Assembly: GCA_009914755.4 (NCBI GenBank)
Contig: CP068257.2
Span: 23,872,001 to 23,936,000 of the forward strand
DNA length: 64,000 bases
Origin: the human T2T-CHM13v2.0 reference genome, Homo sapiens
Direction: 5' to 3'
Numbering within the stretch: the stretch's first letter is position 1; each line of letters starts with the position of its first letter. A model generated the notes under the pieces. That model saw only the letters and a program-made list of their open reading frames with translations, was not told where the DNA came from and did no database searches. This document shows, in pieces, positions 11,586 through 64,000 of the stretch. Position numbers and translations under genes: made by a program.

Positions 11586-12082
<497 letters not shown>

Positions 12083-12502: not shown

Positions 12503-12795
<293 letters not shown>

Positions 12796-37906: not shown

Positions 37907-38213
37907 GGGCCAGATGCAGTGATTTATGCCTGTAATTCCAGCACTTTAGGTGGCTGAGGTAGGAGGCTCACTTGAGGCCACGAGTTCAAGACCAGCCTGG
38001 GCAGCATAATAAAACCCTGTCTCTACAAAGAATAAAAATTTAAAAAAAAATTGGTTGGGCATGGTGGCACATGCTTGTAGTCCTAGCTACATGTGAGGCT
38101 GAGATGGGAGGATCACTTAAGGCTAGGAATGTGATGTTTCAGCGAGCTATGATTGTGCCACTGCACTCATCCTGGGTGACAGAGAGAGACCCTGTCTCTA
38201 AAATAATAATAAA
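37907..38213 (+). mobile_element. Older Alu SINE (AluJ-like)
   Basis: gggccagatgcagtgatttatgcctgtaattccagcactttaggtggctgaggtaggagg...cctgggtgacagagagagaccctgtctctaaaataataataaa. Confidence 0.9.
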
Positions 38214-40832: not shown

Positions 40833-41330
40833 GCTATGATCTAAATTGTGTTCCCCCACAACGTTGGTGTTCCTACCATCAACGGTGGATTGGATAAAGA
40901 AAATGTGATATATATACACCATGGAATATTATGCAGCTATAAAAAGAAAAAATCATATCTATTGCACAACATGAATGCAGCTGGAGGCCATTATCTTAAG
41001 CAATCACCAATAAAGCCCTAATCACCAACAGAAATTTGGAGATGGGGCTTTTAGGAGGTAATCAATGAGGTTATAAGGCTAGGGCCCTAATCTAAACAGG
41101 AGTAGTGGCATTATAAAGATAGGGAGAGAGGTGGGTATATCTCTCCACATGCACCCACCAAGGAAAGGTCATATGAGAACATAGCAAGAAGGTGGTTGTC
41201 TGCAGGAAGAAAGTGCTCACCTAGAACTGAATCAGCACCTTGATCTTAGGCTTCCTGCCTCCAGAACTGTGAGCAATAAATTTCTGTTATTTAAGTCATA
41301 GTATTTTGTGACAGTCCTAGGACTAATTCA
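40833..41330 (+). mobile_element. MaLR-type LTR (MLT1/MST-like) split by a 139-bp L1-derived fragment (40872-41010)
   Basis: 5' part atgctatgatctaaattgtgttcccccaca, then the L1 3'-region piece (ggtggattggataaagaaaatgtgatatatatacaccatggaatattatgcagc...ctggaggccattatcttaagcaa), then the LTR resumes aagccctaatcaccaacagaaatttggagatggggc...ccagaactgtgagcaataaatttctgttatttaagtcatagtattttgtgacagtcctaggactaattca. Confidence 0.5.
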
Positions 41331-41374
41331 ATGAGCAATATGAGAGTATCACTGAGTTCTCAGCTTGGTTCCAG

Positions 41375-42850: not shown

Positions 42851-44374
42851 TGCTCAGAGAAGTCTCCCCAGTTATTTCAGAGAGGAAGGGGGTGGGAAAG
42901 ACAGTGTAGAGTAATTTACTACAGGTGACTCATCAATTCACAAACTGAACCTTTAGACACTGAGCCAGGCCAGCTGAAATAAGAATATGGTTGAGGTCAG
43001 ATACTGAGGGAAGTGAGTGCTATGGGGGGGCAGGTGGAGGAATTTTCTCTATATGTGATGTGATGATGATGACATCTATATGGAAGCAGAATGGTTCCCT
43101 TCCAAGGTTGTTCAAGAACCAAAATATTTTGAGAATCTTCGTCCTTTCCCCAGAACCTAACTTTTCCTCCATTATATGAAAATTTCCAAAAGACTGTGAA
43201 AACCTACCTTCCCAAAATGTTCAAATGAAGAAAATGAGCCAAGAGCAAAATCTCTACACTACCAAAAACTTTAAATTTTATGAAAAAAGTTATCTATGGA
43301 AGGCAGTGTATGTATAGACAAAAGAATTCTTAAGAGGCATTTGATGAGTATAAATGACTAAACAATTAGAGCATAGCTAAAAAGAGTCTGTAACTCACTG
43401 CAGAAAACACTAGTCTCCTTTGCAGAGGTTTGACTTTATTCCAGTGTTCCTTATGAAGGGGTGAATGGGAAAGATAAGGTTGAAAGGTTCATTCTCTCTA
43501 ATTTGTAAATTTCATCTATTTGATAGAAAGAGAGAGAAAAAAAGCCACTCCTTTGCCCTCTGAAGGGAAAGGCATCCCAGCATTTAAGAGTATCACATAA
43601 CACTCCAAAGCAGCAACCCATTTACAGAGGAAACATGAGTGAAAACAACATAGGCCAGAATTGGGCTTCCAAATGTTATAAACAGTGAAAGGAATAAAAA
43701 TTAAATTATGATAGGAAAAAATTCTCTGATGCTTTGTTTGTGAAAAATAAAAACAAACACTCTTCATGAAATCTGAACATCTTATGAAGGCTACATTTTT
43801 TTAGCCTCAGGCATTAATTATGGTTGCGCCACTGATGGAGTCCAAAGGAAGCCAATTCAATCCACTTCATCCTCAGGGATGGAGAGCAACCACAAGTTTA
43901 CAAAATAATTAATTATCTCCAGGTTATTGTACAACAGGGTAAACAGTGAACTGAAACCCTGTACCACAATAAATAAGCTGGTCAAGGCTGAAATGTGGGT
44001 CTATTTCTTCACTCACCATCTCTGTCTTACATTCTTCCAAAGGGCTGAACTTCAAGATCGTTGAGTACTAAACCTCCAGAAACTATTTTTATTTTTTTCT
44101 ACCACTTTTTTTTTTTTAAGGAGAGAGATTGGAGGCTGGTTCCTAATCATTCCCTGTGATTATTGTAGGTTTCTGTAGAATTTCATGAAACTATGATGTT
44201 TTTAGCAAGACTTTGTCATTGATCTGTAGCTGTGCCAGTTGTCACAATCTATTCATCATTATTGATAATAAGTAATATCAAGAAGTACCACTCTTATCTG
44301 GAAGGTCATTGATGTGAGCTGCTCGGTCTCTGGAGGGTAAGATGAGGGATGAGAACACCAGCCCCATCAGCCCT

Positions 44375-45267
<893 letters not shown>

Positions 45268-45289
45268 TGGAGCAGGTACTTTTTATCCA

Positions 45290-45720
45290 TCACCTTATTT
45301 AATCATCATATCCCTCTTAGTCTGCTAGGGTTGCCATAAGAAAATACCATAGACTGGATGGCTGATACAACAACAATTTATTTTCTCACATTCTGGAGGC
45401 TAGAAAGTTCCAGATCAAGGTCCTGCAGGGTTCGGTTTCTGGTGAGGACTCTCTTCCTGGCTTACAGGAAACCACCATCCCATTGTGTGCTCACATGACC
45501 TCTGCTTTGACTGATTTCTGAGAGAAAGGGAATTCTGGTGTCTCTTCCTCTTCTCATAAGAGCACTAGCTCTATGGGATTAGTGATCCACCCTTTTGACC
45601 TCATTTAACCTTTATCACCTCCTCACAGGCCCTATCTCCAAATGGGGATAACATTGGGGATCAGGGCTTCAACATATAAAGTTGAAGAGAACATGATTCA
45701 GTCTATAGTAATCCCTGATG
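45290..45720 (+). mobile_element. Ancient LTR-like repeat, second tandem copy of the 44375-44880 family
   Basis: tagtctgctagggttgccataagaaaataccatagactggatggctgatacaacaacaatttattttctcacattctggaggctagaaagttccagatcaaggtcctgcagg...ctatctccaaatggggataacattggggatcagggcttcaacatataaa. Confidence 0.5.
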
Positions 45721-46184
45721 GGAGACATCATTATTGTCATTTACAGGAAGCTGAGACATAAAAAGTTTAACGTTCAGATTCCACAGCTAGAATTAGTGTA
45801 AAATGCAGGTGTATTTGACTCCTAAAACCCATTTATCCATCCACTATTCTGGGTGTCTCAAACTGGGACCTAAAATGCGGAGGTTTGCACATGACCTGAA
45901 ATTACTTCCACCACTGGGAGAAGGGAGGATTGAGCAATTTCCTGTTTCTATTAAAGTGCATTATACAAACTTGTCATTCTGGGGATGAAAGGTCACCCTA
46001 GAATTGCCTATGGGCAATTTCTTATAGTTCAACCTAGAATGAGAAATGGGAAATTCAGAAAGGCATTGTAGGCATCTGTAACCAGCAGAGGGACGTGCCC
46101 CACCTGGGTGGGGACCATGCATCCTTGCCACATGCCCCACTGCACAACTTCCCCAGCTCCTCAACGTCACATGGATCTGGAAAG

Positions 46185-46445
46185 CAGGGAGACTGGACTA
46201 CGGAGCCAGCCCTCCAGGGTTGGAACTGAGTTTGAATCTCAGCTTGACTACTTACTAGGATCTAAGGTAACATGTTTAATCTCTCTGTGCTCAGTTTCCT
46301 CATCTGGAAATAGAGATTATAATGCTCCTCCCTCATATGATCATAGTGAGGACTGAAAGAGTTAATGCATATAAGGAGTGTTAGGACAGGATCTGGCACA
46401 TGGTAAATGCTTTATAAGTGTTAGTTGTTATCATCATGATTATTC
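46185..46445 (+). mobile_element. MIR SINE
   Basis: ...gactacggagccagccctccagggttggaactgagtttgaatctcagcttgactacttactagg...ctctctgtgctcagtttcctcatctggaaatagagattataatgctcc...gtgaggactgaaagagttaatgcatataaggagtgttaggacaggatctggcacatggtaaatgctttataagtgttagttgttatcatca matches the MIR core/consensus. Confidence 0.6.
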
Positions 46446-47660
46446 TTGTTTGAATTATAAGAGAAAAAGCATGTATCTTAAGAATAGAGGGTTTTAAAAT
46501 GCTCCCAAGTTCCTTAACCAACCTGAGCCATCTGTAAATTAAGTACTATGGGATTTCCAGCTCTGACATGTATTCTGACATGTAACTGGCATCAGTTTAA
46601 TACAAACTATTCTAAAATGTCTTGTGCCCTTGACAGGGAGGTCCAAGTACTGGATACTTGCAATGCAATCCAGCAGTGGCCCCGTCTTTCTTACAAAAAG
46701 GCCCCAGTCACATGTTGATGAGGCTAGATCTATTCCTGTCCTCCTTCTCTTCCCCATATTTCCTTATTCTTCTTCAAGTCTAAACGTTTATTGAACTGAG
46801 ACCCATGAATGAGTTACTCGACTAGGCTTGTAGGATAAACTTGCCAGGCTTTAGATCTATTTGTTCCTTTCCATCCCCCAAAATCAAATGGCTGCTCCAG
46901 GAAAATGTTCCCCTTGTGGCAGGGTCCGGGAGAAAAGAGAGAAGCGACAAAACCAAAAATTAAAACGACCGAAGTCCCATATGCTCCAGGAATATGTCCT
47001 GGAGATGGGAGTGGAGGGCAGGGGGAGAATGTTGTTGAGGTCAAAATTTTTGAAGTTTTAAGTCCTATATCTTGACATCCCGAGTATAAATGCGGGTACC
47101 AGACACAGTACAAACGTTCTCAAAGCCCAGTTACGTATTCCAAACCAAACGCGGGCTCTTGAAGGGTGATGAGGTAGGGATGAAATCCAGGATCGCCTGA
47201 AGACCATTTCTTCCTCTCTTAGGGACCTGCTGGTCTCCAGCTGATTCGGTCCAGGAGGAAAAACCTCCCACTTGCTCCTCTCGGGCTCCCTGCAAGGAGA
47301 GAGTAGAGACACTCCTGCCACCCAGTTGCAAGAAGTCGCCACTTCCCCCTCCAGCCGACTGAAAGTTCGGGCGACGTCTGGGCCGTCATTTGAAGGCGTT
47401 TCCTTTTCTTTAAGAACAAAGGTTGGAGCCCAAGCCTTGCGGCGCGGTGCAGGAAAGTACACGGCGTGTGTTGAGAGAAAAAAAATACACACACGCAATG
47501 ACCCACGAGAAAGGGAAAGGGGAAAACACCAACTACCCGGGCGCTGGGCTTTTTCGACTTTTCCTTTAAAAAGAAAAAAGTTTTTCAAGCTGTAGGTTCC
47601 AAGAACAGGCAGGAGGGGGGAGAAGGGGGGGGGGTTGCAGAAAAGGCGCCTGGTCGGTTA

Positions 47661-47667
47661 TGAGTCA
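47661..47667 (+). promoter_or_regulatory. MIR155HG: AP-1/TRE consensus heptamer TGAGTCA, 10 bp upstream of the TATA box
   Basis: Exact TGAGTCA in gttaTGAGTCAcaagtgagtTATAAAAG. A conserved AP-1 site near -40 is a described feature of the BIC/MIR155HG promoter. Confidence 0.6.
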
Positions 47668-47676
47668 CAAGTGAGT

Positions 47677-47684
47677 TATAAAAG
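47677..47684 (+). promoter_or_regulatory. MIR155HG: TATA box TATAAAAG
   Basis: Exact TATAAAAG about 30-40 bp upstream of the inferred TSS. Followed by an ATG-free GC-rich exon and a GT donor. Confidence 0.7.
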
Positions 47685-47709
47685 GGTCGCACGTTCGCAG
47701 GCGCGGGCT

Positions 47710-47833
47710 TCCTGTGCGCGGCCGAGCCCGGGCCCAGCGCCGCCTGCAGCCTCGGGAAGGGAGCGGATAGCGGAGCCCCGAGCCGCCCGCAGAGCAAGCG
47801 CGGGGAACCAAGGAGACGCTCCTGGCACTGCAG
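47710..47833 (+). ncRNA. MIR155HG: MIR155HG (BIC) exon 1, non-coding. TSS inferred about 25-40 bp downstream of TATA (start +/-15 bp); ends at splice donor CAG|GTACGC
   Basis: No ATG between TATA and the donor ...ctggcactgcag|gtacgccgac (GT at 47834-47835). The distance from this TSS to pre-miR-155 (about 11.8 kb) and to the AATAAA (about 13 kb) agrees with the known roughly 13-kb three-exon BIC gene. Confidence 0.7.
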
Positions 47834-50800
47834 GTACGCCGACTTCAGTCTCGCGCTCCCGCCCGCCTTTCCTCTCTTGAACGTGGCAGGGACGCCGGGG
47901 GACTTCGGTGCGAGGGTCACCGCCGGGTTAACTGGCGAGGCAAGGCGGGGGCAGCGCGCACGTGGCCGTGGAGCCCGGCCTGGTCCCGCGCGCGCCTGCG
48001 GGTGCCCCCTGGGGACTCAGTGGTGTCGCCTCGCCCGGGACCAGAGATTGCGCTGGATGGATTCCCGCGGGCAGAGGCAGGGGGAAGGAGGGGTGTTCGA
48101 AACCTAATACTTGAGCTTCTTTGCAAAGTTTCCTTGGATGGTTGGGGACGTACCTGTATAATGGCCCTGGACCAGCTTCCCTGTTGGAGTGGCCAGAGAA
48201 GTGTGTAAAACACACTAGAGGGGCAGGGTGGAAAAAGAGACTGCCTTCAAAACTTGTATCTTTTCGATTTCATTTTGAAAAATAACTACAAATCTATTTT
48301 AATTTTACAAAGTTAGACTCATAGCATTTTAGATATCAATGTCTTCATTTAACAGAAGTGAAGATGGAGCAAACGCTCAATCAGCGTCTGTATTTATTCG
48401 CTCCTGTTGTGCCAGGGTGCGTTTTTGCCGAGCGGTTGCCTTTCTTTACTCACAAAACCCCCTTGATGTCTGTCCTCCACGTTTTACGAGGGAGAGCCGG
48501 ATCTTTTGAAGTTTGTATCATCTAAAGCAGGTATATTGGGATGACTATGGATAGAATTTAACCTGAAAACACTGAAGTTGACAGCTGACAAAGATATAAG
48601 AATCCAAAGTATGTTAAAAATTAAGGAGCTGAGGCCCACAGAAGTGAAGTTACTTTTCCAGCATCACACAGCAGATCTAGGACCCTGTGTGATTTGAAAA
48701 GGCCAAGGTATCTAATGATGCTCATAATTTAGTTTACATTTTGTGTCAAATAGATGAGGTCAAGTGGACATTATGTGTATATTCCAAAGCCAAAATTACT
48801 GCTTGTAATATCCATTCATCTCTCCGAAGACGTAGTGCCTCTTTTATATGGCTTTAACCTAATGTATAATCGAAGTGAATTAGGGCAGCCAGACTTTTAA
48901 TCACAGGACTGATCTTTTAAAAACGGGTATATGTAAAGTTAATTGCTTATCTATGTGAACAGTAATATACACTATAAAAAGTTTTCAAGGCAACTTCCTG
49001 CCTGTGGTTTAATTTGATAGTCACAATGATAGGAAATTGGCAGGGTTAGGTGGTGGTATCTACATTTTGCCCATGAGGACTTGTGGCTCAGAGAATTTGA
49101 GTTTTTTCTAGTAAGGTCACTAGGTCCCTAGTGCACAGCCTGCTTTTAGGTACGGATGTGGGATGGGGGTGTCGGCAGACCACAGGGTTTTGACTCTCAG
49201 TTTGGGCTCATTTCCATGACTCCTTGCTGCCTCCCTGATTTCTGTCAAATGACCAAAGCACATTTAGTAATTACTTCTGCTGCAAGGACTACTCCTTATT
49301 AGGCTGTGATAAGTAAGTTTCCTCACATAGTGGGTCAGCTCACTCTGGCCACAGGACCCAGCTTCCTAACCACACACATTAAGAAAGAGAAAAATTAGCA
49401 CTGTCTGAGACCTACAACCACTTCAAGGGAGAACAGTGGTGTTTGCACAAATGTCTACTTTTGTTTTAACCTAGTCATGTGTAAAAAGTGTAATTCACTG
49501 GTCTTTACCAAAAAAAAAAAAAAAAAAACAACAACAAAAAAAAAACAGGCATCATAGTCTGCCTGTGCTGGACGCTATGCTAGACACTGGAGAGACAAAG
49601 GTGAGCAGGATAGGCACAACCCTACCCTTACAAACCCAGAAAGTTAGAGGAAGGCCATCAGGACATTGCTGTGCAATTTGATATCATTTCAATTTTGGTA
49701 ACATAGATATTTGAACTAATTAGAATGTGCTACAAATTTTGCCATTCTTTACTTTCCATATGCCAACATGGAAAATTTGTAACCCTCATCTTTAAATACC
49801 TCATCTTACCAGTCCTCTATAAATCAAAAAATCTACCCCAAAAAGCCCTAGGTTTTAACTTTTGAAAAGTTTTTTTTTATCAGCTTTTCAGGTCATGACT
49901 AAGATCTGCCATTCAATTTAAAGGAATTCTTTCATTTTAGAGTAATAGTTACTAAAATCCTTTATTCCTACCTCCTTGAGAATCTAATGGAAATTTTATA
50001 TGCTCTTCCCAGAAAATTTTTGTTAATGTGTATCCTCACACACCAATTTGCATTCGATGTTAGCAGGCTAGAGACTTCCTTGAATCTCAGCCATGACCCT
50101 CTTCGGGGGTCCACTTTCATAATCAGTATTCTAAACCTAGTAGGCATAAATAGCTTGAATAGAGGAAAGTGGTATGTAGACTCTTGCCCTTCACTTGGAC
50201 TGGGCACCTCTATCACTTGGACTGGGCACCAGCTAGTGCCCTTAACTAGCTGGTGTCTCCATTTTTGATAGTCATTGGCTATTGCTTAGCTGAAGCTATT
50301 GATTTTAACAGCCTTATTGTTTTGATATCAGGCTGCCACTCTGCAGAAGTCTAATACTGGGGAAGGAGCACCGGCCTGAGAACCATGGTTTGTTTCTAGG
50401 ACCAACTCTGCAGATTTCTGTGCCTCATTTTGCTCATCTCTAAGATGGGTGGTTGATGGGTGGCAGGGACTGAACCATTTCTAAAATCCCTTACACTGAT
50501 GAAATTCTGTGATTCCAGTGTAACTACCAAGCTCACTTTCATATACCTCCTGAGACACAGCTGGTCTTAGTGAATTTATATCCTCTATGTCCAAAGTAAG
50601 TCAAAGTAAGTACCACTATAATTCACTATAGAATGTATTTTTGTCTTTCACTGATCTTACTGGACTCAAAACTGTTACATGTTTCCTTAAATTAGATAGA
50701 ATAAAAAAATTGTGAAACACTACTTTTCAAGGAAAAATATTACAATTTTAAAAGCCTCTTTTTATCCCACCTCTCAGTAGCTACAACTTTCATATACGAG

Positions 50801-51559
50801 TTTCACATATATATGAAAAAAATTTTCTTATCTCAGACTCTTAAGGAAATGCAATGCTTTTAATATGATCACTGCTGTGTAATTCTCATCTGCCCTGAAA
50901 CACTTGTTCTGTCCATCAATCAATGTATTTGGGTTTACAATATGCAGAGCCTCAAGCAAAACCAGTGCAAAAGCACATCTATCCTCAAATAGGCACATCA
51001 TATGTCTGAGCAGTTCAGCATCCTCACTCACAAGTCCAAGGCTCTCAGCAATGTGGAAGAAGATGTGATTCCTAAAATTACCACCCTTACACACAGTGAC
51101 ACACTCACCAGAAAGTGAGGCTTAACATAGCTTAAGTGGCTGTAGTTTAAAACAGATTGTGAATATCTGTGCTAATTCTGAGAAACAATTAGCAGACATA
51201 TTAACCAATTAGCACAGATCACTAATATCTGTGCTAATTGTTAGGACAGATTAGCACAGATATTGCTACCTTGTGTGGGTAGACAGGGTTAAGGCACTGG
51301 CAGAAGGAAAGATTAGTGAGGAATATCAAATAGCTGATTTAATGAAATTGTGAGGCCGATGTTTGGATAAGGTGAAACAGTGCCCTACAATGACATTTAT
51401 GCCAGTTCTCCATAAACAAGAGTGTTCTACACAAATTATAAGTTCCTGGCTGTCTTAACAAAATGCTATGGTCCTTTATATGCTCACACAAATAATGGTT
51501 CCAAGCATGGGAAACAGGTGCCAGATTGCCCAGGTAGGCATCCCAGCAGCATGCTCCTT

Positions 51560-51745
51560 AGCCACTGATTAACCTTGCGCAAGTTATTTCACCTGCCTGT
51601 GCCTCAAGGCCCCTGTGTTTCAATGGGGAGGGTGTGAATACTCATTCCTAAGGTTGTGAGGAGGAATAACTGAGTTAGTATACGTCAAACACTTAGGTGC
51701 TTGGCACAGAGGGAGCCTGTGTAAGTGTTTGCTATTATTTTGTTT
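51560..51745 (+). mobile_element. MIR SINE (in MIR155HG intron 1)
   Basis: ...gcgcaagttatttcacctgcctgtgcctcaaggcccctgtgtttcaatggggagggtgtgaatactcattcctaaggttgtgaggaggaataactgag...aaacacttaggtgcttggcacagagggagcctgtgtaagtgtttgctattatt. Confidence 0.5.
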
Positions 51746-52309
51746 CAGTAGATGATCTTGTGTATTATAAGAAATCAATTTGGAAGGTGAGATACAAATG
51801 CAGTCTGAGAAAGTAAAGACGTTTTAAAGACATTTTACTGTGTCATGAATTTTCAGAGACCACACTGACATGGTAAAAAGTTGTTTGGTTTTTAGAATTT
51901 TTGTTTCAGAATGCATATCCTTCTCCTTAACCAAAAGAAAAACTACTAAAATACTTCTGAAAATTATTTCCAAGAAAACATTTTGGTGTACCTTTTAGCA
52001 GTTACTTTATGACTTAAAGATTAGGATGAACAAAATAATTATTTTAACTTGGCTTTTACCTGCTTGTAGATAACCTCTAATTTATATAATGGTTCAATTA
52101 TACAGTGGTAAATGTATCTGGGCTTGTTCTTTTAAAATAGCAAGTGTAACATGTGATAGATGTAGGGTACTTACAAAGTACTCACCAAGCATTGATGACT
52201 GATGTCATTAGTATCATGGCTAACATTCACTGAGCCCTGATTATGAGGCTGACACCCAACTAAATGTTTTGCATTGTCACTTCATCTTCACAAAGACTTT
52301 TTGAATAGG

Positions 52310-52430
52310 TTATTCTTTATCTCCATTTTCAGAGAAGCAACTAAGCCCTAAAGAGGTTTATTAACTTGCCAAATACCACACAGCTAGTAACACTGGTGGG
52401 GTCTGGAATGGAACCCAGGCAAGCTGAAAA
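52310..52430 (-). mobile_element. MIR SINE fragment (minus)
   Basis: tctccattttcagagaagcaactaagccctaaagaggtttattaacttgccaaataccacacagctagtaacactggtggggtctggaatggaacccaggcaag equals the reverse complement of the MIR core. Confidence 0.5.
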
Positions 52431-55414
52431 CGACAGAACAATGAACACTCCTACTTTTCAATTCGATTTGCTAATTGTTAATATTTGCCACACTGGCTTA
52501 TCTCTCTGTATCCCTACCCATCTCTCTCTCTCTCTGTCTATATCTATATGCAAACCTGGCATCTAACTTCTAAATGCTTGAGCACGGATCTCCTAAGAAC
52601 AAGTACATGGTTCTATGCAATGAAAAGACATGATTATGGCATCCAAGAGTGATTTTAAAAATCAAGGATGAAACTTAATTTTTACCCACAAGTCCAGACG
52701 ATGATTTCTACCAGTATTCTCCAGCTTTACTCTGTTTCTTATACTTGACAGACTGAGCTCCAAGCCTGGAATCTTCTAAAAAGGGTCCACTGCCAATCTG
52801 GAATGCCAACAAATCTTATTAATATATCTCCACATTTGTAAGCTTCTACTAAATTCTCCAAGAACCTGCATATCAGTTAAGTCCTGAAATGCTCCAGTGC
52901 CAAATAAAAGCCCACTGTGCAGATAGAAATGCTTTTGGTGACTCTCAAACATTTATTCAAAGGTATTTAGTGAGTATCTGTCAGCTGTATATCCAGCACT
53001 GAGGGAAGACTCAGTCTCTGCCATCACATACACCTCAGCACTAAGAAGAGACACATGAAATAATTACCATCCAGTGTGATAAGTGCTCTGACAGAGGATG
53101 GAGTGAGGACTAGTCACCTTGGGGAAGACAGAGAAGCAGGGTCCCACCAGGAGATGAGGAGAAGCCAGCCTCCAGGAGTGCGCTATCTGAGAGGGCAAGA
53201 GAAGGAAGGCAAAGAGGACGGGTCCATACTTGAACAACTTGAAGTAGGTGTATCTAGTGCCTAAGAGTGTGTATGGTGACATCTTGTGGAGCAGTGAACA
53301 TGACCCTCATTTGGTTTGTTAAAGCATTGGGTCAAATGCCACGGGAATGTAACAGGTAAATGGTCTTTGCCTTATAACACAGGGTATCCCATCCGTGTAA
53401 GACAATGAATTTTTAAAAAGGCAAAACCAAACCTTTTGTTTACATCATTTGCCTTAAATAGTTCTTAGTACACAAATTCTTCCTTGCTTGGGGCCATTAT
53501 GGTGTGTGGAAGTAGAAAAAGATAAACTGTAGCTTACAGAAATAGAAAAGCAATTTTTTCCTATGATAGAGGCATACGGATACAAAAAACAAACAGGTAA
53601 CACATAATAAGTTCCAAATGAGGCATTTTGTTGAAATTCAGTGTTGAGCATAAACAGTGAACTCAAATGCACAGAGGAGGCGTCATGGAAGGGTGACAAA
53701 ACACTCCAGAGCAATAACAGCTACCCTATTTTCTGTTCCCTGGGAGTAGGGAGAAAAGACATCAAAATCAAATTATAAATTTAAAAAAGTATTAAAATTC
53801 TCTTATGGAAATATATTAAGAAGTTTGTTAGGCAAATGGAAAACGTTTTGTGGAAACAAGAAATAAGAAAGAATGGCCATCACTTAAAGCAACAGAATGT
53901 ATCTCTCCCACTAGCTCTCCCCTCCCTACCCACAGCTTTATTCACATTTGTTCTATAACATTTCAGCACAGTTCAGACCTTCCGCTGAGCCAGTGTGAGG
54001 TCAGGGTGTTGAGGAAGCGAGTCCCTGCAGTCAGACTCCAGCTGGCTGTCGTCCTGCTTCTGCTTATTCCACAGAATGAGCCTGGTGGGGGAGAGGAAAT
54101 TCCTAACCTGTTTTTTTTTACACATCTTCATCAGAAAAGCGAAAGCACTAATTACTGTCCATAATAAAACTACTGGGAAGGTTACTTAGCTTGTAAGTAA
54201 GTTCCACAAAGCCATTTCAGTAAAAACTTCCTGGTTCTAAAATTGGGAAAAGCAGGATAATCCTCTAAGGCTGACATTCTTTCTCTTTTGTGCATTTACA
54301 ACTAAACGGTCACTGATACACATTTCCACAGTGACCCTGCAATATCCACATTGGCTTTCTTCTAAGACACTTCAAAAATACATCACACCTTTATGTGTTA
54401 AATATCACTATTGGCATATATCTTTAAAAACATTTATTTTCTTAATTCTCAAAATACAGAAAAGAATGTTATGCTATTGTGTGCACAAACTGCTATTTTC
54501 AATAAGGAGCTCTTAATTTAGAAAGTTGCTATTTTTCAATAAAGAGCTCTCAATTAGAAAATATCAAGAAGTGATGTTAAGTTTTTATGGAAATAAATAA
54601 AGTATCATGACATGAAAAGTTTATAATTTTTCCCCCAGCAATGGCTTACTCAGGGAATTTTTCTTATATGTAAAGTTAATGATCTGAAAAGTGGTAATCT
54701 TATCATTCACCAAGATTTCAGGATATAAGTTATTCCTACAGAACAATCCATTTTTACCTTTAAAGATGAGTTTGTGTACTTCAGAAGATGTGACGCCAGT
54801 TGGCCACCATCTCAATCAGTAGTAAGTCACACCATCAATCCCTTGTTAATGATGGAACTCATGTGAAGTCAAGAGGAAACATAATACTCTTTACCTCATT
54901 CCCTGGTAGCAGAGAAGTTGACTCATCTTTAATGTCAGTTATTGAGATGTAACACAGAATCATATTCTACAGAAAATATGTGATAAACTTTACACAAATG
55001 AATACACTTTAGAAAGGCAGTCATTTGGATTTTCTTTTTGTCAGAGAACATTGCAAGTCTTCCTGAAGAATTTCTGAGAAATTAAACACTTTATATGACA
55101 TTTTACAGCATGTAGAGAGGTTGAAACTCAGAGAACTAAAACTCAGATGATAGTCTAAATACTTAATTTGTTGCTGCTTTATGCTGGACATGAAAAGTGT
55201 GAGCTTAAATTATAAATAAAAAACTGTTGAGCTATCAAACTATTTGGGGTACATCCTTATCTTTCCTCTAAATTACTCTTTATTCCCATTAAAATCCACC
55301 TATCCCGGGTCCTCTCTCCTCAGCCCTTCACCTCTGCTTTCAAAGATGACTAACTAACCTAATAAACACATCTAAGGTGATGTGTCAACTTCAACCCCAA
55401 CCCTTTTTCCCCAG

Positions 55415-55499
55415 ATAACTTGTCTGCATTTCAAGAACAACCTACCAGAGACCTTACCTGTCACCTTGGCTCTCCCACCCAATGGAGATGGCTCTAATG
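55415..55499 (+). ncRNA. MIR155HG: Candidate MIR155HG exon 2 (85 nt), flanked by strong canonical splice sites
   Basis: Acceptor: tcaaccccaaccctttttccccAG|ATAACTTGTCTGC.... Donor: ...GGCTCTAATG|GTAAGGaattc. Size fits a three-exon transcript of about 1.5 kb. Unique (non-repeat) sequence. Not independently confirmed. Confidence 0.5.
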
Positions 55500-56339
55500 G
55501 TAAGGAATTCTATCTTAAGTAAAAGGGAAGGGAAACACGCTGACAGATGCAGTTTTTATAAAGGCAGGTCATTGGGGCACCAAGTTGGCAGCCGCTTTCA
55601 ACTTTTGATTCTACCTCAAAAGGTAACCAAGAAATCGTTGTTATTCTAAAGATTATGACAAGTCCAAAGTTTCACAGAATCCTGATTTTTATACACTTGC
55701 ATTAATCACTGCTTACTTCCATGATGTAAACCAAAACTGCAGCGGCAGAATATAGAGAATCAGAATAAATTCTGATAGAAAAGGCAGATACTGTTTCCAC
55801 ATATACAAGTATATGCTAATTGCTTTTAGCAAACTGATCCAAATAGGAATCAACATTATTCCATCTTAATGATTATGTTTTTGATTGGTACACATAAATG
55901 TTAAAGTGGGAAAATATGCAGAGAAAGTTACCTAAACTAAATCACTTTAATTTTCAACAACATAATTACATTCCATTTCACCTACTAAAATGGCTTTGGA
56001 CCTAGAATTTGTATTGCTACATCAATATAAGATGACTTTCAGTAAAAATAGATGTACAGTTGATTTGTAACAACAAATTAATAGTTTTAAATTATTTGTA
56101 TATTTCAAGGTAAATAAAATTAGAGCTATCCCACAATCGCTTTGGTTATGAAATTCGACCACTGTAACTTTTTTTAAAGAAAACTTTATGGTGTGCAGTT
56201 CCTTTGGTATGCAAATATTAAATGGTTGGTGCTGAGAATAAGCAGCAATATAGAAATATATATAATTGTAGAAGAATATAACCTATGATTTAGACATAAA
56301 ATGAGATCCTTACAAGATAAAGAGTTATGGAGATGGATG

Positions 56340-56465
56340 ATAATGATAGTTGTAGAACATTATGACTAAGTGTTTAATATAGCGGACCTGTACACTTAAA
56401 AATGGTGAAGATGTTAAACTTACATTATGTTTACATTACATATTTCACCACAATAAAAAATTTTT
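56340..56465 (+). mobile_element. L1 3'UTR tail fragment
   Basis: ...acctgtacacttaaaaatggtgaagatgttaaacttacattatgtttacattacatatttcaccacaataaaaaa matches the canonical L1M 3' terminus. Confidence 0.45.
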
Positions 56466-56584
56466 GAAGGAAAACCAGAACTTTAATGACAAACTTAGGA
56501 CATATTATGCTCTGAATATATAGTTTTGATAACGTCTTTCCTGGCAAATCAACAAGGTAAGAATAAAAGGATATTCTGAAATCT

Positions 56585-56880
56585 TTTTTTTTCTTTGGAG
56601 ACAGAGTCTTGCTCTGTTGCCCAGGCTGGAGTGCAGTGGCACAATCTCGGCTCACTACTACCTTCTGCCTCCCAGGTTCAAGTGATCCTCCTGCCTCAGC
56701 CTCCTGAGTAGCTGGGATTATAGGCGTGCGCCACCACGCCTAGCTAATTTTTTTGTATTTTTAGTAGAGACGGGGTTTTACCATGTTGGTCACGCTGGTC
56801 TCAAACTCCTGACCTCATGATCCGCCCACCTCGGCCTCCCAAAATGCTAGGATTACAGGCATGAGACACCGCACCCAGCC
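56585..56880 (-). mobile_element. Alu SINE (minus)
   Basis: Poly-T then ggagacagagtcttgctctgttgcccaggctggagtgcagtggcacaatctcggctcac...ctaggattacaggcatgagacaccgcacccagcc. Confidence 0.95.
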
Positions 56881-59558
56881 AGATATTCTTAAATCTTATG
56901 CTCACACTCCACCCCCCCCAAAAAAATTGTCCTTCAGGAAAGCATAATTTAAGGAAAAATTTCCCAAAGTGCCACCTTCAGCTTCATTCTTAGCACCAGA
57001 GGAAGAATTGCCTGTCATATAATGAAAGATCCTTGGTGTTATCATTAATCTAGTATACATAGTGCTTCCTCTTGGTAGATTTTTACCTACTGTGAGAAGG
57101 AATGATTTTGATACTCAGACAGTGTGTAGTAATTTGTTAAGAACATTTAACTTGGAACCTATGCTACACAGTAAAACTTATACTGACAATGGATATTTCA
57201 TGTGGTAGGCCTAAGAAGTATTGTGGAGTGAGGGGACTGGAAGTATATCTGCAGAACTACCTAGTCAAAGACCCCAGTCTAATTTCTAATGTATAATTCA
57301 TATAAATTACTCTTGCATTGCTATACATTAAACATTATGCTTGTCACATTCTTACTTGGTTAGCACTGTCACTACTGATTGTCAGGCCTATAATTGTGTA
57401 TAATTCTTCCCCTGCCACTTTACCAGCTGGTGGCCACACCGATTCCAGAAAGAACTACTTTATTTCTTATTACCTCATGAAAGCACCCTCTGCCCAGTGC
57501 CTTGGCTAATAGACTGGCCTTTGTTGTCTATGACCACTAATTCCCACTCAGGCATATAGCAATTCTGTTGGTGGTTGCTTAGCCCAGTCAAAAACACTGG
57601 AAGTGGACATAGACTCCACACTGATGAATGAATGACCTTCTAGTCATTCTAATGTCCTTAAAAGTCTACTATTTTTAAATTGTAGAATATATATATATAT
57701 ATATATATTTTTTTTTTTTCTGGGATATTTCTCCTTTCTTCTGTTCATTAATGTTTTTCATCTATCATTGTGTTTTAAATATGACCTAAGGTTCTATAGT
57801 ATATTTAGACAAACTTCTCATTTCTCTGCAGTGTTCGGAATTCATCATGCCTGTATGACAAGGTTGTGTTTGAGAACAAAAGGGGACCTGTGTGACATGT
57901 TTTATTTCAATATACATTTAGAGTTTGAACAAATAAAAAAAGCTATTAGAATTTTTAATATATATAACACATTATCAAAAACACTGTCACTTTTCTGAGT
58001 GCTCTAATCAGGCAATTCGTATGTATATTTAAAAAGAGGGAAAAAGCTAATTAGTATACTAAATATATTTATTTTAATACCTGTGCTCATATGTTATCTT
58101 TAAAGAACAGGAATAAAATTTATGGGTAGAATAGTATGCCAGCAATTTACCTTCAATACAAATTAAACACATCTTTTAAGAAAAGGGCGAGTTATATTGG
58201 CTGGGGTGGCACTAACACTACATTATTAATATGTATTTATTGAGCATTTACTGTGTCCAGGACCCTGTAAGGGGGAAAAAAAGTCCTTGTTTTTACAATC
58301 TTTATTGACTGAAATTCTGTAAAATGAATTGAATTCCTGAAGTGACATCATTTAACCCAAATTTTTTCATCATCAACTAATTCATCTCAGAAAACAGTAA
58401 AGTTTAAAAAAAAATACTATCAGTAAGAATAATATATTTCCTTGGTTTGGAAATTTCCAAACCACGATATTCTGCCCTGTCAAAATATATTCACTGGGGA
58501 ATTTTTTACTTCATACGTTTCTTTTGAACTTAGTCACATTTTTATATCTAGCTGGTTTCATTATTAAATAAAAGAAAAGGTGATTCCCCTCTTGTACTGC
58601 AGGAGACCACATACTTGAATGATACTCTAACTTCTAGGTTCTGTTATAGTAACACTGAAATCAGAAACCTGTGGGAGAAATGTCACTTTATCTGAGAGAG
58701 TAAAATCAGACTCTAAAAGGAAGTAGCAAATTCATCTTGTTCTTTTTTTTAATCAACCCTCTGCCTAAGACAAGTAGTTTGAAACACAGAGGACTCTTTA
58801 AGTCATACTTCCTTTATGTAGTCAAAACCAAAGCCACTGGGTAGTGCTTTCCCCAAAGGAATCTCTAAATAGTAGACGGGGACATTTTCAGATAGATTCG
58901 TTTGTAGGCAAACCTCCATTGCTTGTATCACATTTCCTGAAAGAATAAAGGTAAAACTTCAACTATGTATTACAGAAAGAAAAATTCAGCCTGAACCCTA
59001 CCCTTATAAAACAGGTTAATTGGGTTTTAATTTTCATAAATCATAAAGGACTATTTTGAACATTTGGGCCTTTAATTGTCTAGCTCCTAGATGAAGTACA
59101 AATCAGAAAAAAAAAAACTGTACTGTGTCAGAATGCAAGCTTTCCTCTTTGCATTTTGGCATTTGAAAACTCCGAAGAGCGGTTTTTGTTTTTTATTTAA
59201 AGAAGATGATACATATGTGTACCCGATTCAAAACTAGAGAATAGAATTTAAAACATAATTTTCAAAGTCTTCAAATATGCCTAAAGGTAACAATGTCATC
59301 TTTTAATTGCCAATTTCTCTACCACTTTCAAAAAATTACTTCCAAGGATTTAATGAGCTCCTTCCTTTCAACAGAAAATGGACTATTTTCCTTTCAGATT
59401 TACTATATGCTGTCACTCCAGCTTTATAACCGCATGTGCATACACAAACATTTCTTTCTCTCTTGCAGGTGGCACAAACCAGGAAGGGGAAATCTGTGGT
59501 TTAAATTCTTTATGCCTCATCCTCTGAGTGCTGAAGGCTTGCTGTAGGCTGTATGCTG

Positions 59559-59582
59559 TTAATGCTAATCGTGATAGGGGTT
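59559..59582 (+). ncRNA. MIR155: Mature miR-155-5p: UUAAUGCUAAUCGUGAUAGGGGUU
   Basis: Exact match to the hsa-miR-155-5p sequence (ttaatgctaatcgtgataggggtt). Confidence 0.97.
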
Positions 59583-59597
59583 TTTGCCTCCAACTGA

Positions 59598-59619
59598 CTC
59601 CTACATATTAGCATTAACA
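59598..59619 (+). ncRNA. MIR155: Mature miR-155-3p: CUCCUACAUAUUAGCAUUAACA
   Basis: Exact match (ctcctacatattagcattaaca) on the 3' arm. Confidence 0.95.
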
Positions 59620-60329
59620 GTGTATGATGCCTGTTACTAGCATTCACATGGAACAAATTGCTGCCGTGGGAGGATGACAAAGAAGCATGAGTCACCCTGC
59701 TGGATAAACTTAGACTTCAGGCTTTATCATTTTTCAATCTGTTAATCATAATCTGGTCACTGGGATGTTCAACCTTAAACTAAGTTTTGAAAGTAAGGTT
59801 ATTTAAAAGATTTATCAGTAGTATCCTAAATGCAAACATTTTCATTTAAATGTCAAGCCCATGTTTGTTTTTATCATTAACAGAAAATATATTCATGTCA
59901 TTCTTAATTGCAGGTTTTGGCTTGTTCATTATAATGTTCATAAACACCTTTGATTCAACTGTTAGAAATGTGGGCTAAACACAAATTTCTATAATATTTT
60001 TGTAGTTAAAAATTAGAAGGACTACTAACCTCCAGTTATATCATGGATTGTCTGGCAACGTTTTTTAAAAGATTTAGAAACTGGTACTTTCCCCCAGGTA
60101 ACGATTTTCTGTTCAGGCAACTTCAGTTTAAAATTAATACTTTTATTTGACTCTTAAAGGGAAACTGAAAGGCTATGAAGCTGAATTTTTTTAATGAAAT
60201 ATTTTTAACAGTTAGCAGGGTAAATAACATCTGACAGCTAATGAGATATTTTTTCCATACAAGATAAAAAGATTTAATCAAAAAATTTCATATTTGAAAT
60301 GAAGTCCCAAATCTAGGTTCAAGTTCAAT

Positions 60330-60500
60330 AGCTTAGCCACATAATACGGTTGTGCGAGCAGAGAATCTACCTTTCCACTTCTAAGCCTGTTTCTTCCTCC
60401 ATAAAATGGGGATAATACTTTACAAGGTTGTTGTGAGGCTTAGATGAGATAGAGAATTATTCCATAAGATAATCAAGTGCTACATTAATGTTATAGTTAG
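60330..60500 (+). mobile_element. MIR SINE fragment embedded in MIR155HG exon 3
   Basis: ...cttctaagcctgtttcttcctccataaaatggggataatactttacaaggttgttgtgaggcttagatgagatagagaattattcc...aagtgctacattaatgtt matches the MIR core (cctcagtttcctcatctgtaaaatggggataataata.tacctac.tcatagggttgttgtgaggattaaatgag). Confidence 0.55.
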
Positions 60501-60711
60501 ATTAATCCAAGAACTAGTCACCCTACTTTATTAGAGAAGAGAAAAGCTAATGATTTGATTTGCAGAATATTTAAGGTTTGGATTTCTATGCAGTTTTTCT
60601 AAATAACCATCACTTACAAATATGTAACCAAACGTAATTGTTAGTATATTTAATGTAAACTTGTTTTAACAACTCTTCTCAACATTTTGTCCAGGTTATT
60701 CACTGTAACCA

Positions 60712-60717
60712 AATAAA
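60712..60717 (+). terminator. MIR155HG: Polyadenylation signal AATAAA (candidate MIR155HG 3'-end signal)
   Basis: Exact AATAAA in ccaaATAAAtctcatgag, about 1.25 kb into exon 3. Consistent with an approximately 1.5-kb spliced transcript. Confidence 0.5.
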
Positions 60718-60906
60718 TCTCATGAGTCTTTAGTTGATTTAAAATAATTTTTATGGCCCATTTTCTTTTGCAAAGTACAAATTATAATTCCAGAAGCTAT
60801 CTGCCAAAAAAAGACAATGGAAGAAAATTATGAGGACACTAAAGGGAACATTCCTGACTCCTAGGACACAGTATTCTCATGTAAGAATACCCATTTGGCT
60901 TTGCCC

Positions 60907-61002
60907 CACTTTCTGTTCAAGTTGTATGTGCTGCCAAGACAAATTTCTTCTCCTCACTTTCTGTTCAAGTTGTATGTGCTGCCAACACAAATTTCTTCTC
61001 CT
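60907..61002 (+). repeat. Tandem duplication: 48-bp unit x2 (1 mismatch)
   Basis: cactttctgttcaagttgtatgtgctgccaaGacaaatttcttctcct followed immediately by the same unit with G to C. Explains the duplicated peptide PHFLFKLYVLP in ORFs 60830-61101. Confidence 0.9.
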
Positions 61003-61003
61003 A

Positions 61004-61368
<365 letters not shown>

Positions 61369-61614
61369 GTGTCTGTTCAATTCATTTTATCTGCCACTGT
61401 ATATCTACAAGAGGACTCCTTGCTTTGAGTCCCAGTTCTTCAAAATCCTGCTTGCTGCCTAAAGACACAAAGTCATAGAACATTAGGACTGGAATAAACT
61501 ATTGTAGTATAACCTTCCTGCTGTTACAATAAAAAGCTATAAACATTACAAAGGCACTTAAAGAAAAGCTGTGCTAGGAAATGCCTTATTTGAAGAGCAT
61601 TTGGGTACACTCAC

Positions 61615-61770
61615 ATGAAGCTTTGGAAAGTTACTTAATCTTCCTCTAAGCCTCAATTTCTTCATCAATAAAATGATGAATATATTTCATATTTCATAAG
61701 ATGTAGGCTTAAATGAAATCATGCATGTGAAAAGCACAATGTCTATTATGCATTAAGTGTTAAACACAAA
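61615..61770 (+). mobile_element. MIR SINE fragment
   Basis: gaaagttacttaatcttcctctaagcctcaatttcttcatcaataaaatgatgaat...ggcttaaatgaaatcatgcatgtgaaaagcacaatgtctattatgcattaagtgttaaaca. Confidence 0.5.
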
Positions 61771-62617: not shown

Positions 62618-62950
<333 letters not shown>

Positions 62951-64000
62951 TGTTACTGTAGTGTTTTAACAAATCTAAGTGTAATAGTATTAGTCTTCAT
63001 TCATCTAAGACATACAAGTACTGGAATTTTTTAGGTGGGTTCCTCAAATGTCATCACAGTGGTGTCTTCTCTACATTCAGTCACTCTTCCGCCCTTCTCT
63101 GTAATGCTCAGGGATTTCCCAGTTCACTAGCACTTAACATAGTATGTCCTTACTTACTTTGGGGTATAAATGACTGCAATAGAAGAAGTGATATCCTTGA
63201 GGGATGAAACACGATCTTGCATATTCATATCCCTTTCAAATGTTTACTGACTTAATCACACCATTAGTTTTCTAAGTCCAAGTCTAAAAACAGAAATGAG
63301 TTTAAATACAGTGAACATTTCATTTTCACTATACCACTAAGCTGAAAGAAATGATTTTTGGTAAATAAAAGTTCATCACAGTGAAAAGTTCTACATATAA
63401 CTGAAGATCAAAGGATTCTCACCTGGGAAGCTTGTCAAGATGCATGTTCCCAAGCTCCCAGGCTCCCACTCCCAGAGATTCTAATACTGTAATGGAGCTG
63501 AGGACACTACATTTTTAACAGGCTGACCAGGTAGTTCAGATTCAGGTGGTTCCTAAACCAACTCTGAGGAAGTAGTGGTTTTATATACGATGCTACTGTT
63601 GATGTGGCTACTAGGAATGGTGCTCAGCAGAAATCCTGCAACATATGGATCTGTTTACACACTATTCACTGTGTAATGAGAGTCTGCAACATAGGCTAAG
63701 TGATAAGAGATGTCTTGTGGTTGACCTCTCTGGAGATAAGCAGCAATGAAATTCCAATGAAGTTTCATCATCTCTCATCACCAAAACCATCCTAACCACC
63801 TCAATAAAATACACCTGACTTCCCCCGCTCCCCCGACCCACCACCCCAAAACCAGCTGCCCTATGTTCTACCAAAAGCTGCAACCAACCAATGACCTGAT
63901 ACTAACCCCAATCTATCAGCTGCTGCCTAGTGCAACAGAGAGGGAAAGTCAATGAGAAGGAATTGGGTGCCAGTTCTTGCTTTGCAAGGAGTGGGTTGAC

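What the first reader, a model, noticed from the sequence alone, without database searches (positions are those of the whole stretch)
59556..59620. Exact pre-miR-155 hairpin with both mature arms
The 65-nt sequence reproduces the hsa-mir-155 stem-loop nucleotide for nucleotide. 5p UUAAUGCUAAUCGUGAUAGGGGUU sits at 59559-59582 and 3p CUCCUACAUAUUAGCAUUAACA at 59598-59619. It is the key functional element of the window and a regulator of immune-cell activation. It lies 87 nt inside an exon that begins at a strong AG acceptor.
Basis: partly seen in the sequence, partly recalled or inferred. Interest (0 to 1): 0.7.

Follow-up and report, generated by a model that had tools for sequence, protein, structure and literature searches.

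The report
Human miR-155 gene in MIR155HG

Summary
Confirmed and already known. Window 59556-59620 (+) is identical, base for base, to the miRBase hsa-mir-155 stem-loop MI0000681 as quoted in the literature. miR-155-5p lies at 59559-59582 and miR-155-3p at 59598-59619. Rfam's mir-155 model (RF00731) matches end to end at those coordinates: 90.1 bits against a gathering score of 56, E = 8e-19. The minus strand scores only 33.1 bits. The RNA folds into a hairpin of -29.5 kcal/mol, z = -8.0, and both ends of the 5p/3p duplex carry 2-nt 3' overhangs.

The surroundings are the complete human MIR155HG/BIC gene. They include a CpG-island promoter with a TATA box and an AP-1-type site, exon 1 ending at 47833, an 85-nt exon 2 at 55415-55499, and exon 3 starting at 59469. 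An AATAAA lies at 60712. A published cDNA primer spans the exon 2/3 junction, so the hairpin does begin 87 nt into exon 3. Eight other published human primers match exactly. The HindIII map agrees with hg19 to within 1-3 bp over 21.9 kb. The published P155 micropeptide reading frame ends about 50 nt upstream of the hairpin. Interest is low: this is a correct re-identification of a textbook locus.

The parts
59556..59620 (+). pre-miR-155 stem-loop (hsa-mir-155, miRBase MI0000681)
   Evidence: Exact 65/65 identity. Rfam RF00731 at 90.1 bits, gathering score 56, model positions 1-65. Fold -29.5 kcal/mol, z = -8.0. Minus strand only 33.1 bits.
59559..59582 (+). miR-155-5p (24 nt; seed UAAUGCU at nt 2-8)
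   Evidence: Single exact match in the window. The string is labelled mir-155-5p in PMC11243622. It is invariant in three orthologue contigs.
59598..59619 (+). miR-155-3p (22 nt)
   Evidence: Single exact match in the window. The string is labelled mir-155-3p in PMC11243622.
59545..59633 (+). Extended pri-miRNA stem: 13 further base pairs below the mature duplex (8 bp, an internal loop, then 5 bp). A UG dinucleotide sits at the predicted basal junction, 59543-59544.
   Evidence: 101-nt fold, -42.7 kcal/mol, z = -6.5. Motif scan.
59469..60740 (+). MIR155HG/BIC exon 3. The start is exact. The end is approximate, placed about 20 nt after the AATAAA at 60712-60717.
   Evidence: The acceptor ends at 59468. 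The cDNA junction primer maps split across the intron. The qPCR reverse primers map at 59490-59516 and 59540-59559. The poly(A) signal is. The acceptor is conserved in register in L001 and L002.
55415..55499 (+). MIR155HG exon 2 (85 nt), flanked by ccccag| and |gtaagg
   Evidence: Sequence. The BIC forward primer maps at 55444-55467. The 5' half of the junction primer maps at 55490-55499.
47707..47833 (+). MIR155HG exon 1. The 5' end is approximate: about 30 nt after the TATA box, while the '+1' used by Gatto et al. falls at about 47769. The donor is cag|gtacgc at 47833/47834.
   Evidence: Sequence. The promoter reverse primer maps at 47751-47768. The exon 1/2 junction itself rests on consensus splice sites only.
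47661..47684 (+). Core promoter: AP-1-type TGAGTCA (47661-47667) and TATAAAAG (47677-47684)
   Evidence: Motif scan and sequence. PMC2582607 reports a functional AP-1 element about 40 nt upstream of the BIC start site and RNA polymerase II on the TATA box.
47401..48200 (.). CpG island over the promoter, exon 1 and the start of intron 1
   Evidence: The 200-bp bins have GC 0.47-0.72 and CpG observed/expected 0.48-1.03, with the core at 47601-48000 (GC 0.68-0.72, o/e 0.92-1.03). The whole window has o/e 0.176.
45987..47768 (+). The experimentally studied 1.78-kb BIC/miR-155 promoter fragment
   Evidence: All four cloning primers of PMC2582607 match exactly. Their spacing is 1782, 1379 and 1064 bp, against the names -1783, -1380 and -1065.
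55482..55499 (+). First 18 nt of the P155/miPEP155 short reading frame (in exon 2)
   Evidence: The spliced translation is [17 protein letters not shown]. The geometry matches PMC7314557.
59469..59504 (+). Last 33 coding nt plus the TAA stop of the P155/miPEP155 reading frame (in exon 3). The last coding base is 55 nt before the hairpin start.

Best explanation
This is the human MIR155 gene. The pre-miR-155 hairpin is embedded 87 nt into exon 3 of the RNA polymerase II-transcribed, spliced and polyadenylated non-coding host gene MIR155HG (BIC). The whole gene, about 13 kb, lies on the + strand of the window from about 47.7 kb to about 60.7 kb. The sequence shows the following. A TATA- and AP-1-containing CpG-island promoter drives a three-exon transcript of about 1.5 kb. 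In that transcript, 59545-59633 forms a stem roughly three helical turns long. The 5p and 3p sequences lie on opposite arms, and both ends of the duplex have 2-nt 3' overhangs, the signature of Drosha and Dicer cuts. The remaining steps are inferred from established knowledge of the canonical miRNA pathway. Drosha-DGCR8 cuts about 13 bp above the basal junction and releases the 65-nt pre-miRNA. Exportin-5 exports it and Dicer removes the apical loop. Argonaute loads mainly the 5p strand, because its A/U-rich 5' end (UUAAU) is paired more weakly than the 3p 5' end (CUCC opposite GGGG). The seed UAAUGCU then guides repression of mRNAs such as PU.1/SPI1 in activated B cells, T cells and myeloid cells.
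For: The 65 nt are identical to MI0000681 and to both mature arms. Rfam RF00731 matches full length at 90.1 bits against a gathering score of 56, E = 8e-19, while the opposite strand scores 33.1 bits. The fold has z = -8.0 for the hairpin and z = -6.5 with the lower stem. In the minimum-free-energy structure, 5p nt 1 (59559) pairs with 59617, leaving 59618-59619 as the 3p overhang. The first 3p base (59598) pairs with 59580, leaving 59581-59582 as the 5p overhang. For the host gene, the BIC qPCR primers map at 55444-55467 (+) and 59490-59516 (-). The exon 2/3 junction primer maps split across a 3969-bp GT...AG intron. The four promoter primers are exact and correctly spaced. A CpG island, a TATA box and an AP-1-type site are present. 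AATAAA lies 1243 nt into exon 3, which gives a model RNA of about 1484 nt and a gene span of about 13.03 kb. Published figures are 1500 bp, 13 kb and 13,024 bp. The HindIII fragments are 13139, 6297 and 2481 bp, against 13140, 6297 and 2478 bp in hg19. The P155 reading frame reproduces the published geometry. Three orthologue contigs keep both arms nearly invariant while the loop and flanks diverge.
Against: Nothing found here contradicts this reading. There are four caveats. Expression and processing from this exact DNA cannot be observed with these tools. The exon 1/2 junction and the exact transcription start and poly(A) sites rest on consensus signals and are not backed by a cDNA-derived sequence. 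My scan found none of the auxiliary Drosha motifs at their canonical positions: UG is at -16 instead of -14, there is no CNNC within 30 nt downstream, and there is no apical UGU/GUG. These motifs are optional and do not argue against processing. Two HindIII fragments differ from the published hg19 lengths by 1 and 3 bp, which fits coordinate convention or small indel variation.
Confidence: 0.97

Rival explanations
1. The window is the orthologous MIR155HG locus of a non-human great ape. The hairpin would then be that species' mir-155, identical in sequence to the human one.
For: The mature arms are invariant even in distant vertebrates, so identity of the 65 nt alone cannot name the species. 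No primate genome collection was available for a direct comparison.
Against: Nine human-designed primers, about 190 nt spread over 14 kb, all match without a mismatch. The promoter primer spacing is exact to the base. Four HindIII sites reproduce the hg19 map over 21.9 kb with a net length difference of 2 bp and no extra or missing sites. My estimate from general knowledge is that ape-human divergence of about 1.2% substitutions plus frequent small indels would be expected to break several of these agreements.
Confidence: 0.02
2. The hairpin is a non-functional copy, such as a retrocopy, a pseudogene or a cloned insert, and not the native gene.
For: None found.
Against: The hairpin lies in an intron-containing gene with its native promoter, both introns (7581 and 3969 bp) and flanking Alu and L1 repeats. 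All of these are co-linear with published human genomic coordinates. A retrocopy would lack introns, and a construct would lack the 47 kb of upstream intergenic DNA.
Confidence: 0.005
3. The hairpin is a chance inverted repeat or a repeat-derived pseudo-hairpin that only resembles a microRNA.
For: Alu elements in this window give sub-threshold matches to other miRNA families, namely mir-1268 and mir-3135. This shows that repeat-derived hairpin look-alikes do occur here.
Against: The mir-155 match is 34 bits above the gathering score with E = 8e-19. None of the 16 Alu-like matches overlaps the hairpin. The hairpin is conserved in non-primate contigs that lack the human flanks. None of 200 shuffles folds as well.
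Confidence: 0.001

Closest known systems
hsa-mir-155 (miRBase MI0000681; Rfam RF00731) in MIR155HG/BIC exon 3, human chromosome 21q21
   Same: Everything tested agrees. This covers the 65-nt precursor, both mature arms, the strand, the position 87 nt into exon 3, the exon 2/3 junction, the promoter fragment, the HindIII map and the P155 reading frame.
   Different: There are no differences in the hairpin. Two HindIII fragments differ from the quoted hg19 coordinates by 1 bp and 3 bp, which is consistent with coordinate convention or minor indel variation.
Non-human mir-155 orthologues: metagenome contigs L001/L002 (a mammal) and L003 (a more distant vertebrate), and mouse mmu-mir-155 as I recall its sequence
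   Same: The 5p arm is identical over 59559-59582 in all three contigs. The stem architecture is the same, and all pass the RF00731 gathering score at 89.6, 89.6 and 65.6 bits. The exon 3 acceptor is conserved in register in L001 and L002.
   Different: The loop and flanks diverge. L003 has a 1-nt insertion and changes in the 3p arm. Pair 14-53 is U-A in the window and in L001 but U-G in L003, where the Rfam consensus also has G on the 3' side. The recalled mouse precursor differs at 6 of 65 positions, including the C/U at 5p position 12 (the mouse string is from memory and was not verified).
Viral miR-155 seed mimics (KSHV miR-K12-11, Marek's disease virus miR-M4), from my own knowledge
   Same: They share the seed and therefore overlap in targets.
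   Different: They share only the seed and not the precursor. The window sequence is the cellular gene with its host-gene context. The 22-nt 5p pattern has no match in the viral contig collection.

Membership tests
mir-155 microRNA precursor family (Rfam RF00731 / miRBase hsa-mir-155) | A match to the family covariance model (sequence plus structure) at or above the curated gathering score | tested here: met
   90.1 bits against a gathering score of 56, E = 8e-19, model positions 1-65 of 65, at 59556-59620 on the + strand. The reverse strand scores 33.1 bits, below threshold.
mir-155 microRNA precursor family (Rfam RF00731 / miRBase hsa-mir-155) | Sequence identity to the reference human stem-loop and to the annotated 5p and 3p products | tested here: met
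   65/65, 24/24 and 22/22 identity to the strings quoted from miRBase in PMC5297824 and labelled in PMC11243622.
mir-155 microRNA precursor family (Rfam RF00731 / miRBase hsa-mir-155) | Location in the third exon of the BIC/MIR155HG host transcript | tested here: met
   The cDNA junction primer places the exon 3 start at 59469. The host-gene primers, promoter and HindIII map all match. PMC6146817 states that miR-155 lies in exon 3 of BIC.
Canonical Drosha/Dicer-dependent animal microRNA | A stable hairpin with the two mature products on opposite arms and 2-nt 3' overhangs at both duplex ends, on a stem extended about one helical turn below the Drosha cut | tested here: met
   The minimum-free-energy structure of the 65-mer and the 101-mer, combined with the arm coordinates, gives overhangs at 59618-59619 and 59581-59582. 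The lower stem has 8 + 5 bp below 59559.
Canonical Drosha/Dicer-dependent animal microRNA | Auxiliary pri-miRNA motifs: basal UG at -14, downstream CNNC, apical UGU/GUG. These are enhancing motifs and are not obligatory. | tested here: not met
   UG is at -16, at the predicted basal junction. There is no CNNC within +1 to +30, and no UGU/GUG between the arms. These motifs are optional, so this does not bear on membership.
Canonical Drosha/Dicer-dependent animal microRNA | Arms conserved and loop variable across species | tested here: met
   In three orthologue contigs the 5p arm is invariant, the 3p arm is nearly so, and the loop and flanks have diverged. With only three distinct sequences, covariation is uninformative: one compensatory pair among 25.
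Canonical Drosha/Dicer-dependent animal microRNA | Small-RNA reads with defined 5' ends on both arms, and Argonaute loading | not testable with these tools
   No expression data were available here. The evidence is published experimental work, for example the studies cited in PMC6146817 and PMC2582607.

The most novel reading that the evidence does not exclude
The most novel reading left open is modest. The window may represent a human haplotype or assembly that differs from hg19 by small indels of 1-3 bp inside the promoter-containing and exon-3-containing HindIII fragments. In principle such variants could touch regulatory sequence of MIR155HG. Nothing suggests any change to the hairpin, its flanking stem, the splice sites or the mapped promoter fragment.
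Probability: 0.3. Interest if true: 0.03.

Novelty: already known. Interest (0 to 1): 0.05.

Why it matters
miR-155 is one of the most studied microRNAs. It is required for normal B-cell, T-cell and dendritic-cell responses. It is over-expressed in many lymphomas and is induced by Epstein-Barr virus through NF-kB, AP-1, EBNA2 and IRF4 (PMC6146817, PMC2582607). Identifying it here adds no new biology. The value lies in annotation. It anchors the window to human chromosome 21q21 and defines the strand and exon-intron structure of MIR155HG in window coordinates. It also shows that the first-stage reader can recognise a known miRNA, with correct arm coordinates and exon context, from raw sequence alone.

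Tried and rejected
1. Eis et al. 2005 (PMC552785) was requested for the position of miR-155 in the BIC cDNA, but it is not held. I recall the 5p arm starting at nt 241. A cDNA start at 47769 would reproduce that figure, but this rests on memory and carries no weight in the argument.

2. No paper contains the predicted exon 1/2 junction string (GGCACTGCAGATAACTTGTC or its reverse complement). That junction therefore rests on consensus GT...AG sites only.

3. Scans for the 5p arm found nothing in viral contigs or in the bacterial and archaeal genome contigs. There is no viral or contaminant copy in those collections.

4. A strict NF-kB consensus scan of the 1.9-kb promoter found no site at the published -1150 and -1697 positions. 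The only kB-like strings are GGATTTCC at 46551 and GGGAAATTCA at 46048. The second occurs about as often as chance predicts. I could not match either to the published sites with confidence, so they are not listed as parts.

5. The reverse strand of the hairpin was considered as an antisense miRNA. It folds less well (-23.6 kcal/mol) and falls below the Rfam threshold, so it was rejected.

6. Long coding potential of the spliced RNA was checked. The longest ATG-initiated ORF in the model transcript is 42 aa, which is consistent with a non-coding host gene apart from the published 17-aa reading frame.

7. The phage, plasmid and E. coli collections, the protein-homology searches and the structure tools were not used, because they do not bear on a vertebrate non-coding locus.
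Full report
**Observation.** The stretch 59556-59620 reads CTGTTAATGCTAATCGTGATAGGGGTTTTTGCCTCCAACTGACTCCTACATATTAGCATTAACAG. A script confirmed three exact, single matches on the + strand: the 65-nt precursor at 59556-59620, the 24-nt 5p string at 59559-59582, and the 22-nt 3p string at 59598-59619. I first typed the reference strings from memory, so I checked them against the literature. PMC5297824 quotes the same 65-nt string as the miRBase stem-loop MI0000681 of hsa-mir-155. PMC11243622 lists the two short strings as mir-155-5p and mir-155-3p. An independent in vitro transcription template for pre-miR-155 uses the same sequence.

**Family match and strand.** A scan of the whole window against Rfam found RF00731 (mir-155) at exactly 59556-59620 on the + strand. 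It scored 90.1 bits against a gathering score of 56, with E = 8e-19, covering model positions 1-65 of 65. A more permissive scan scored the opposite strand at 33.1 bits, below threshold.

**Fold.**
- The 65-mer folds at -29.5 kcal/mol. Shuffles average -9.6 kcal/mol, z = -8.0, and none of 200 folds as well.
- The 101-mer 59540-59640 extends the stem by 8 bp, an internal loop and 5 more bp, from 59545 to 59633. It folds at -42.7 kcal/mol, z = -6.5.
- The reverse complement of the 65-mer folds less well, at -23.6 kcal/mol.
- Overlaying the arm coordinates on the structure gives 2-nt 3' overhangs at both duplex ends: 59618-59619 at the base and 59581-59582 at the loop side. This is the expected mark of Drosha and Dicer cleavage.
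- The minimum-free-energy fold closes a 4-nt terminal loop on a weak 3-bp helix. The Rfam consensus and the orthologue consensus leave about 13 nt unpaired.

**Exon context.** The sequence shows tttctttctctcttgcag|GTGGCACAAACC, with the AG at 59467-59468.
- I tested this at the cDNA level using published primers. The MIR155HG forward primer GGCTCTAATGGTGGCACAAAC, used in PMC10266045 and PMC12008851, does not occur in the window as one piece. Its halves map to 55490-55499 and 59469-59479.
- Those halves are separated by a 3969-bp intron with GTAAGG...TTGCAG ends. The spliced transcript therefore joins 55499 to 59469, and the hairpin does start 87 nt into exon 3.
- The matching reverse primer maps to 59540-59559, abutting the hairpin.
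- A second published primer pair for BIC (PMC6146817) maps to 55444-55467 (+) and 59490-59516 (-).
- Exon 2 is 55415-55499, 85 nt, flanked by ccccag| and |gtaagg.
- The acceptor and its polypyrimidine tract are conserved in register in two contigs from another mammal.

**Promoter and gene ends.**
- The only strongly GC-rich kilobase of the window is 47001-48000, at 58% GC.
- In 200-bp bins, 47601-48000 reaches 68-72% GC with CpG observed/expected 0.92-1.03. The whole window has 0.176. This is a CpG island in otherwise CpG-depleted vertebrate DNA.
- The island contains TGAGTCA at 47661-47667, TATAAAAG at 47677-47684, and a donor site cag|gtacgc at 47833/47834.
[quoted passage not shown] They map at 45987, 46390 and 46705 (+) and at 47751-47768 (-). 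Their spacing is 1782, 1379 and 1064 bp, against their names of -1783, -1380 and -1065.
- That paper, citing Yin et al., reports a functional AP-1 element about 40 nt upstream of the start site, and reports RNA polymerase II on the TATA box. The TGAGTCA and TATA positions found here are consistent with this.
- The first AATAAA downstream of the exon 3 start is at 60712, 1243 nt into the exon.
- A model transcript running from about 30 nt after the TATA box, through exons 1-3, to just past this signal is 1484 nt long. The TATA-to-poly(A) span is about 13.03 kb.
- Published descriptions give three exons, 13 kb and a 1500-bp transcript (PMC8745074), and a span of 13,024 bp (PMC7314557).

**Species.** PMC6146817 gives hg19 coordinates for two HindIII fragments. 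One of 13,140 bp covers the promoter and one of 2,478 bp covers miR-155. They lie 6,297 bp apart. The window has HindIII sites at 39701, 52840, 59137 and 61618, with none in between. The resulting fragments are 13139, 6297 and 2481 bp. Over 21.9 kb the net difference is 2 bp. Together with about 190 nt of human-designed primers matching without a mismatch, this makes the human locus far more likely than an ape orthologue. I cannot exclude an ape formally, because no primate genomes were available.

**Related sequences elsewhere.**
- The 5p pattern, with Y at the position that differs in mouse, has no match in the viral contigs or in the bacterial and archaeal genomes.
- It matches three metagenome contigs. 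All three contain RF00731 hits above the gathering score, at 89.6, 89.6 and 65.6 bits. They are presumably host DNA from other vertebrates.
- In these contigs the 5p arm is invariant and the 3p arm nearly so, while the loop and flanks diverge. This is the usual conservation pattern for a miRNA.
- With three distinct sequences, covariation is uninformative: one compensatory pair among 25.

**Mechanism.** The sequence shows the hairpin, the extended lower stem, RNase III-type duplex ends, a + strand host gene with a polymerase II-type promoter, splicing signals and a poly(A) signal. The remaining steps are inferred from the established canonical pathway. Drosha-DGCR8 cleaves at 59558/59559 and after 59619-59620. 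Export and Dicer cleavage follow. Argonaute preferentially loads 5p, because its UUAAU 5' end is paired more weakly than the CUCC 5' end of 3p. Repression is seed-guided through UAAUGCU. The auxiliary Drosha motifs are not at their canonical positions: UG is at -16, at the predicted basal junction, and there is no CNNC or apical UGU. These motifs are optional.

**Verdict.** This is a textbook locus, so novelty is 'already known' and interest is low.

**Side observations.**
- The published 17-aa P155/miPEP155 reading frame is present. It starts at ATG 55482, runs for 18 nt in exon 2 and 33 nt in exon 3, and ends with TAA at 59502-59504.
- The window contains many Alu elements and a decayed L1.
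- It also contains two microsatellites and a 48-bp tandem duplication just past the poly(A) signal.

Noticed in passing
window 55482-55499 joined to 59469-59504 (+): A short reading frame crosses the exon 2/3 splice junction and encodes [17 protein letters not shown] (17 aa). It has 18 nt in exon 2, 33 coding nt in exon 3 with a last codon of GTT, then TAA, and it ends 55 nt before pre-miR-155. This geometry matches the published micropeptide P155/miPEP155 of MIR155HG (PMC7314557). The peptide string itself is not in that paper's main text, so the sequence match rests on geometry and on my recollection.
   Followed up: yes
window 9285-9567, 11665-11958, 12511-12777, 18738-19031, 23156-23299, 30673-30954, 34286-34579, 37908-38209, 42342-42615, 44969-45269, 56586-56880, 61072-61367, 62651-62960: There are at least 13 Alu-like elements, at 72-86% identity to the copy at 62651-62960. 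One lies in MIR155HG intron 2 and two lie just downstream of exon 3. They explain the Metazoa_SRP hit at 62833-62949 and the sub-threshold SRP, mir-1268 and mir-3135 hits. Their presence marks the DNA as primate.
   Followed up: yes
window ~6000-11000 (+): This block is strongly A-rich on the + strand, with AT skew of +0.27 to +0.39. Broken ORFs in it match reverse transcriptase (RVT_1, E = 2e-10, 9005-9244) and, weakly, the endonuclease family (7319-7645). It looks like a decayed L1 element in sense orientation, interrupted by an Alu at 9285-9567.
   Followed up: partly
window 4001-6000: This block is about 50% GC in an otherwise AT-rich region and contains a 164-aa ORF on the minus strand (4752-5246). 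None of the ORFs tested here has a Pfam match. Its nature is unidentified. It may be an old repeat such as an LTR.
   Followed up: partly
window 60907-61002: A 48-bp unit is tandemly duplicated (2.0 copies, 97% match), starting about 190 nt downstream of the AATAAA at 60712 and therefore just past the predicted 3' end of MIR155HG.
   Followed up: no
window 358-406 and 32925-32971: Two perfect microsatellites are present: (ATGG)12 and (AC)23.5. Both are likely to be polymorphic.
   Followed up: no
window 39701-52840 and 59137-61618: These HindIII fragments measure 13139 and 2481 bp, against 13140 and 2478 bp quoted for hg19 in PMC6146817. The intervening fragment matches exactly at 6297 bp. The small differences may reflect coordinate convention or 1-3 bp indel variation between this sequence and hg19.
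   Followed up: partly
L001 2542-2606, L002 6376-6440, L003 1146-1209 (all on the minus strand of the locus): Three environmental metagenome contigs carry bona fide mir-155 hairpins from other vertebrates. L001 and L002 are nearly identical and mammal-like, with the exon 3 acceptor conserved. L003 is more distant. This indicates host or animal DNA in those metagenome assemblies.
   Followed up: partly
window 46048-46057 and 46551-46558: NF-kB-like strings GGGAAATTCA and GGATTTCC lie in the cloned BIC promoter fragment, about 24 and 68 bp from the published -1697 and -1150 sites when +1 is taken as 47769. I could not equate them with the published sites.
   Followed up: partly
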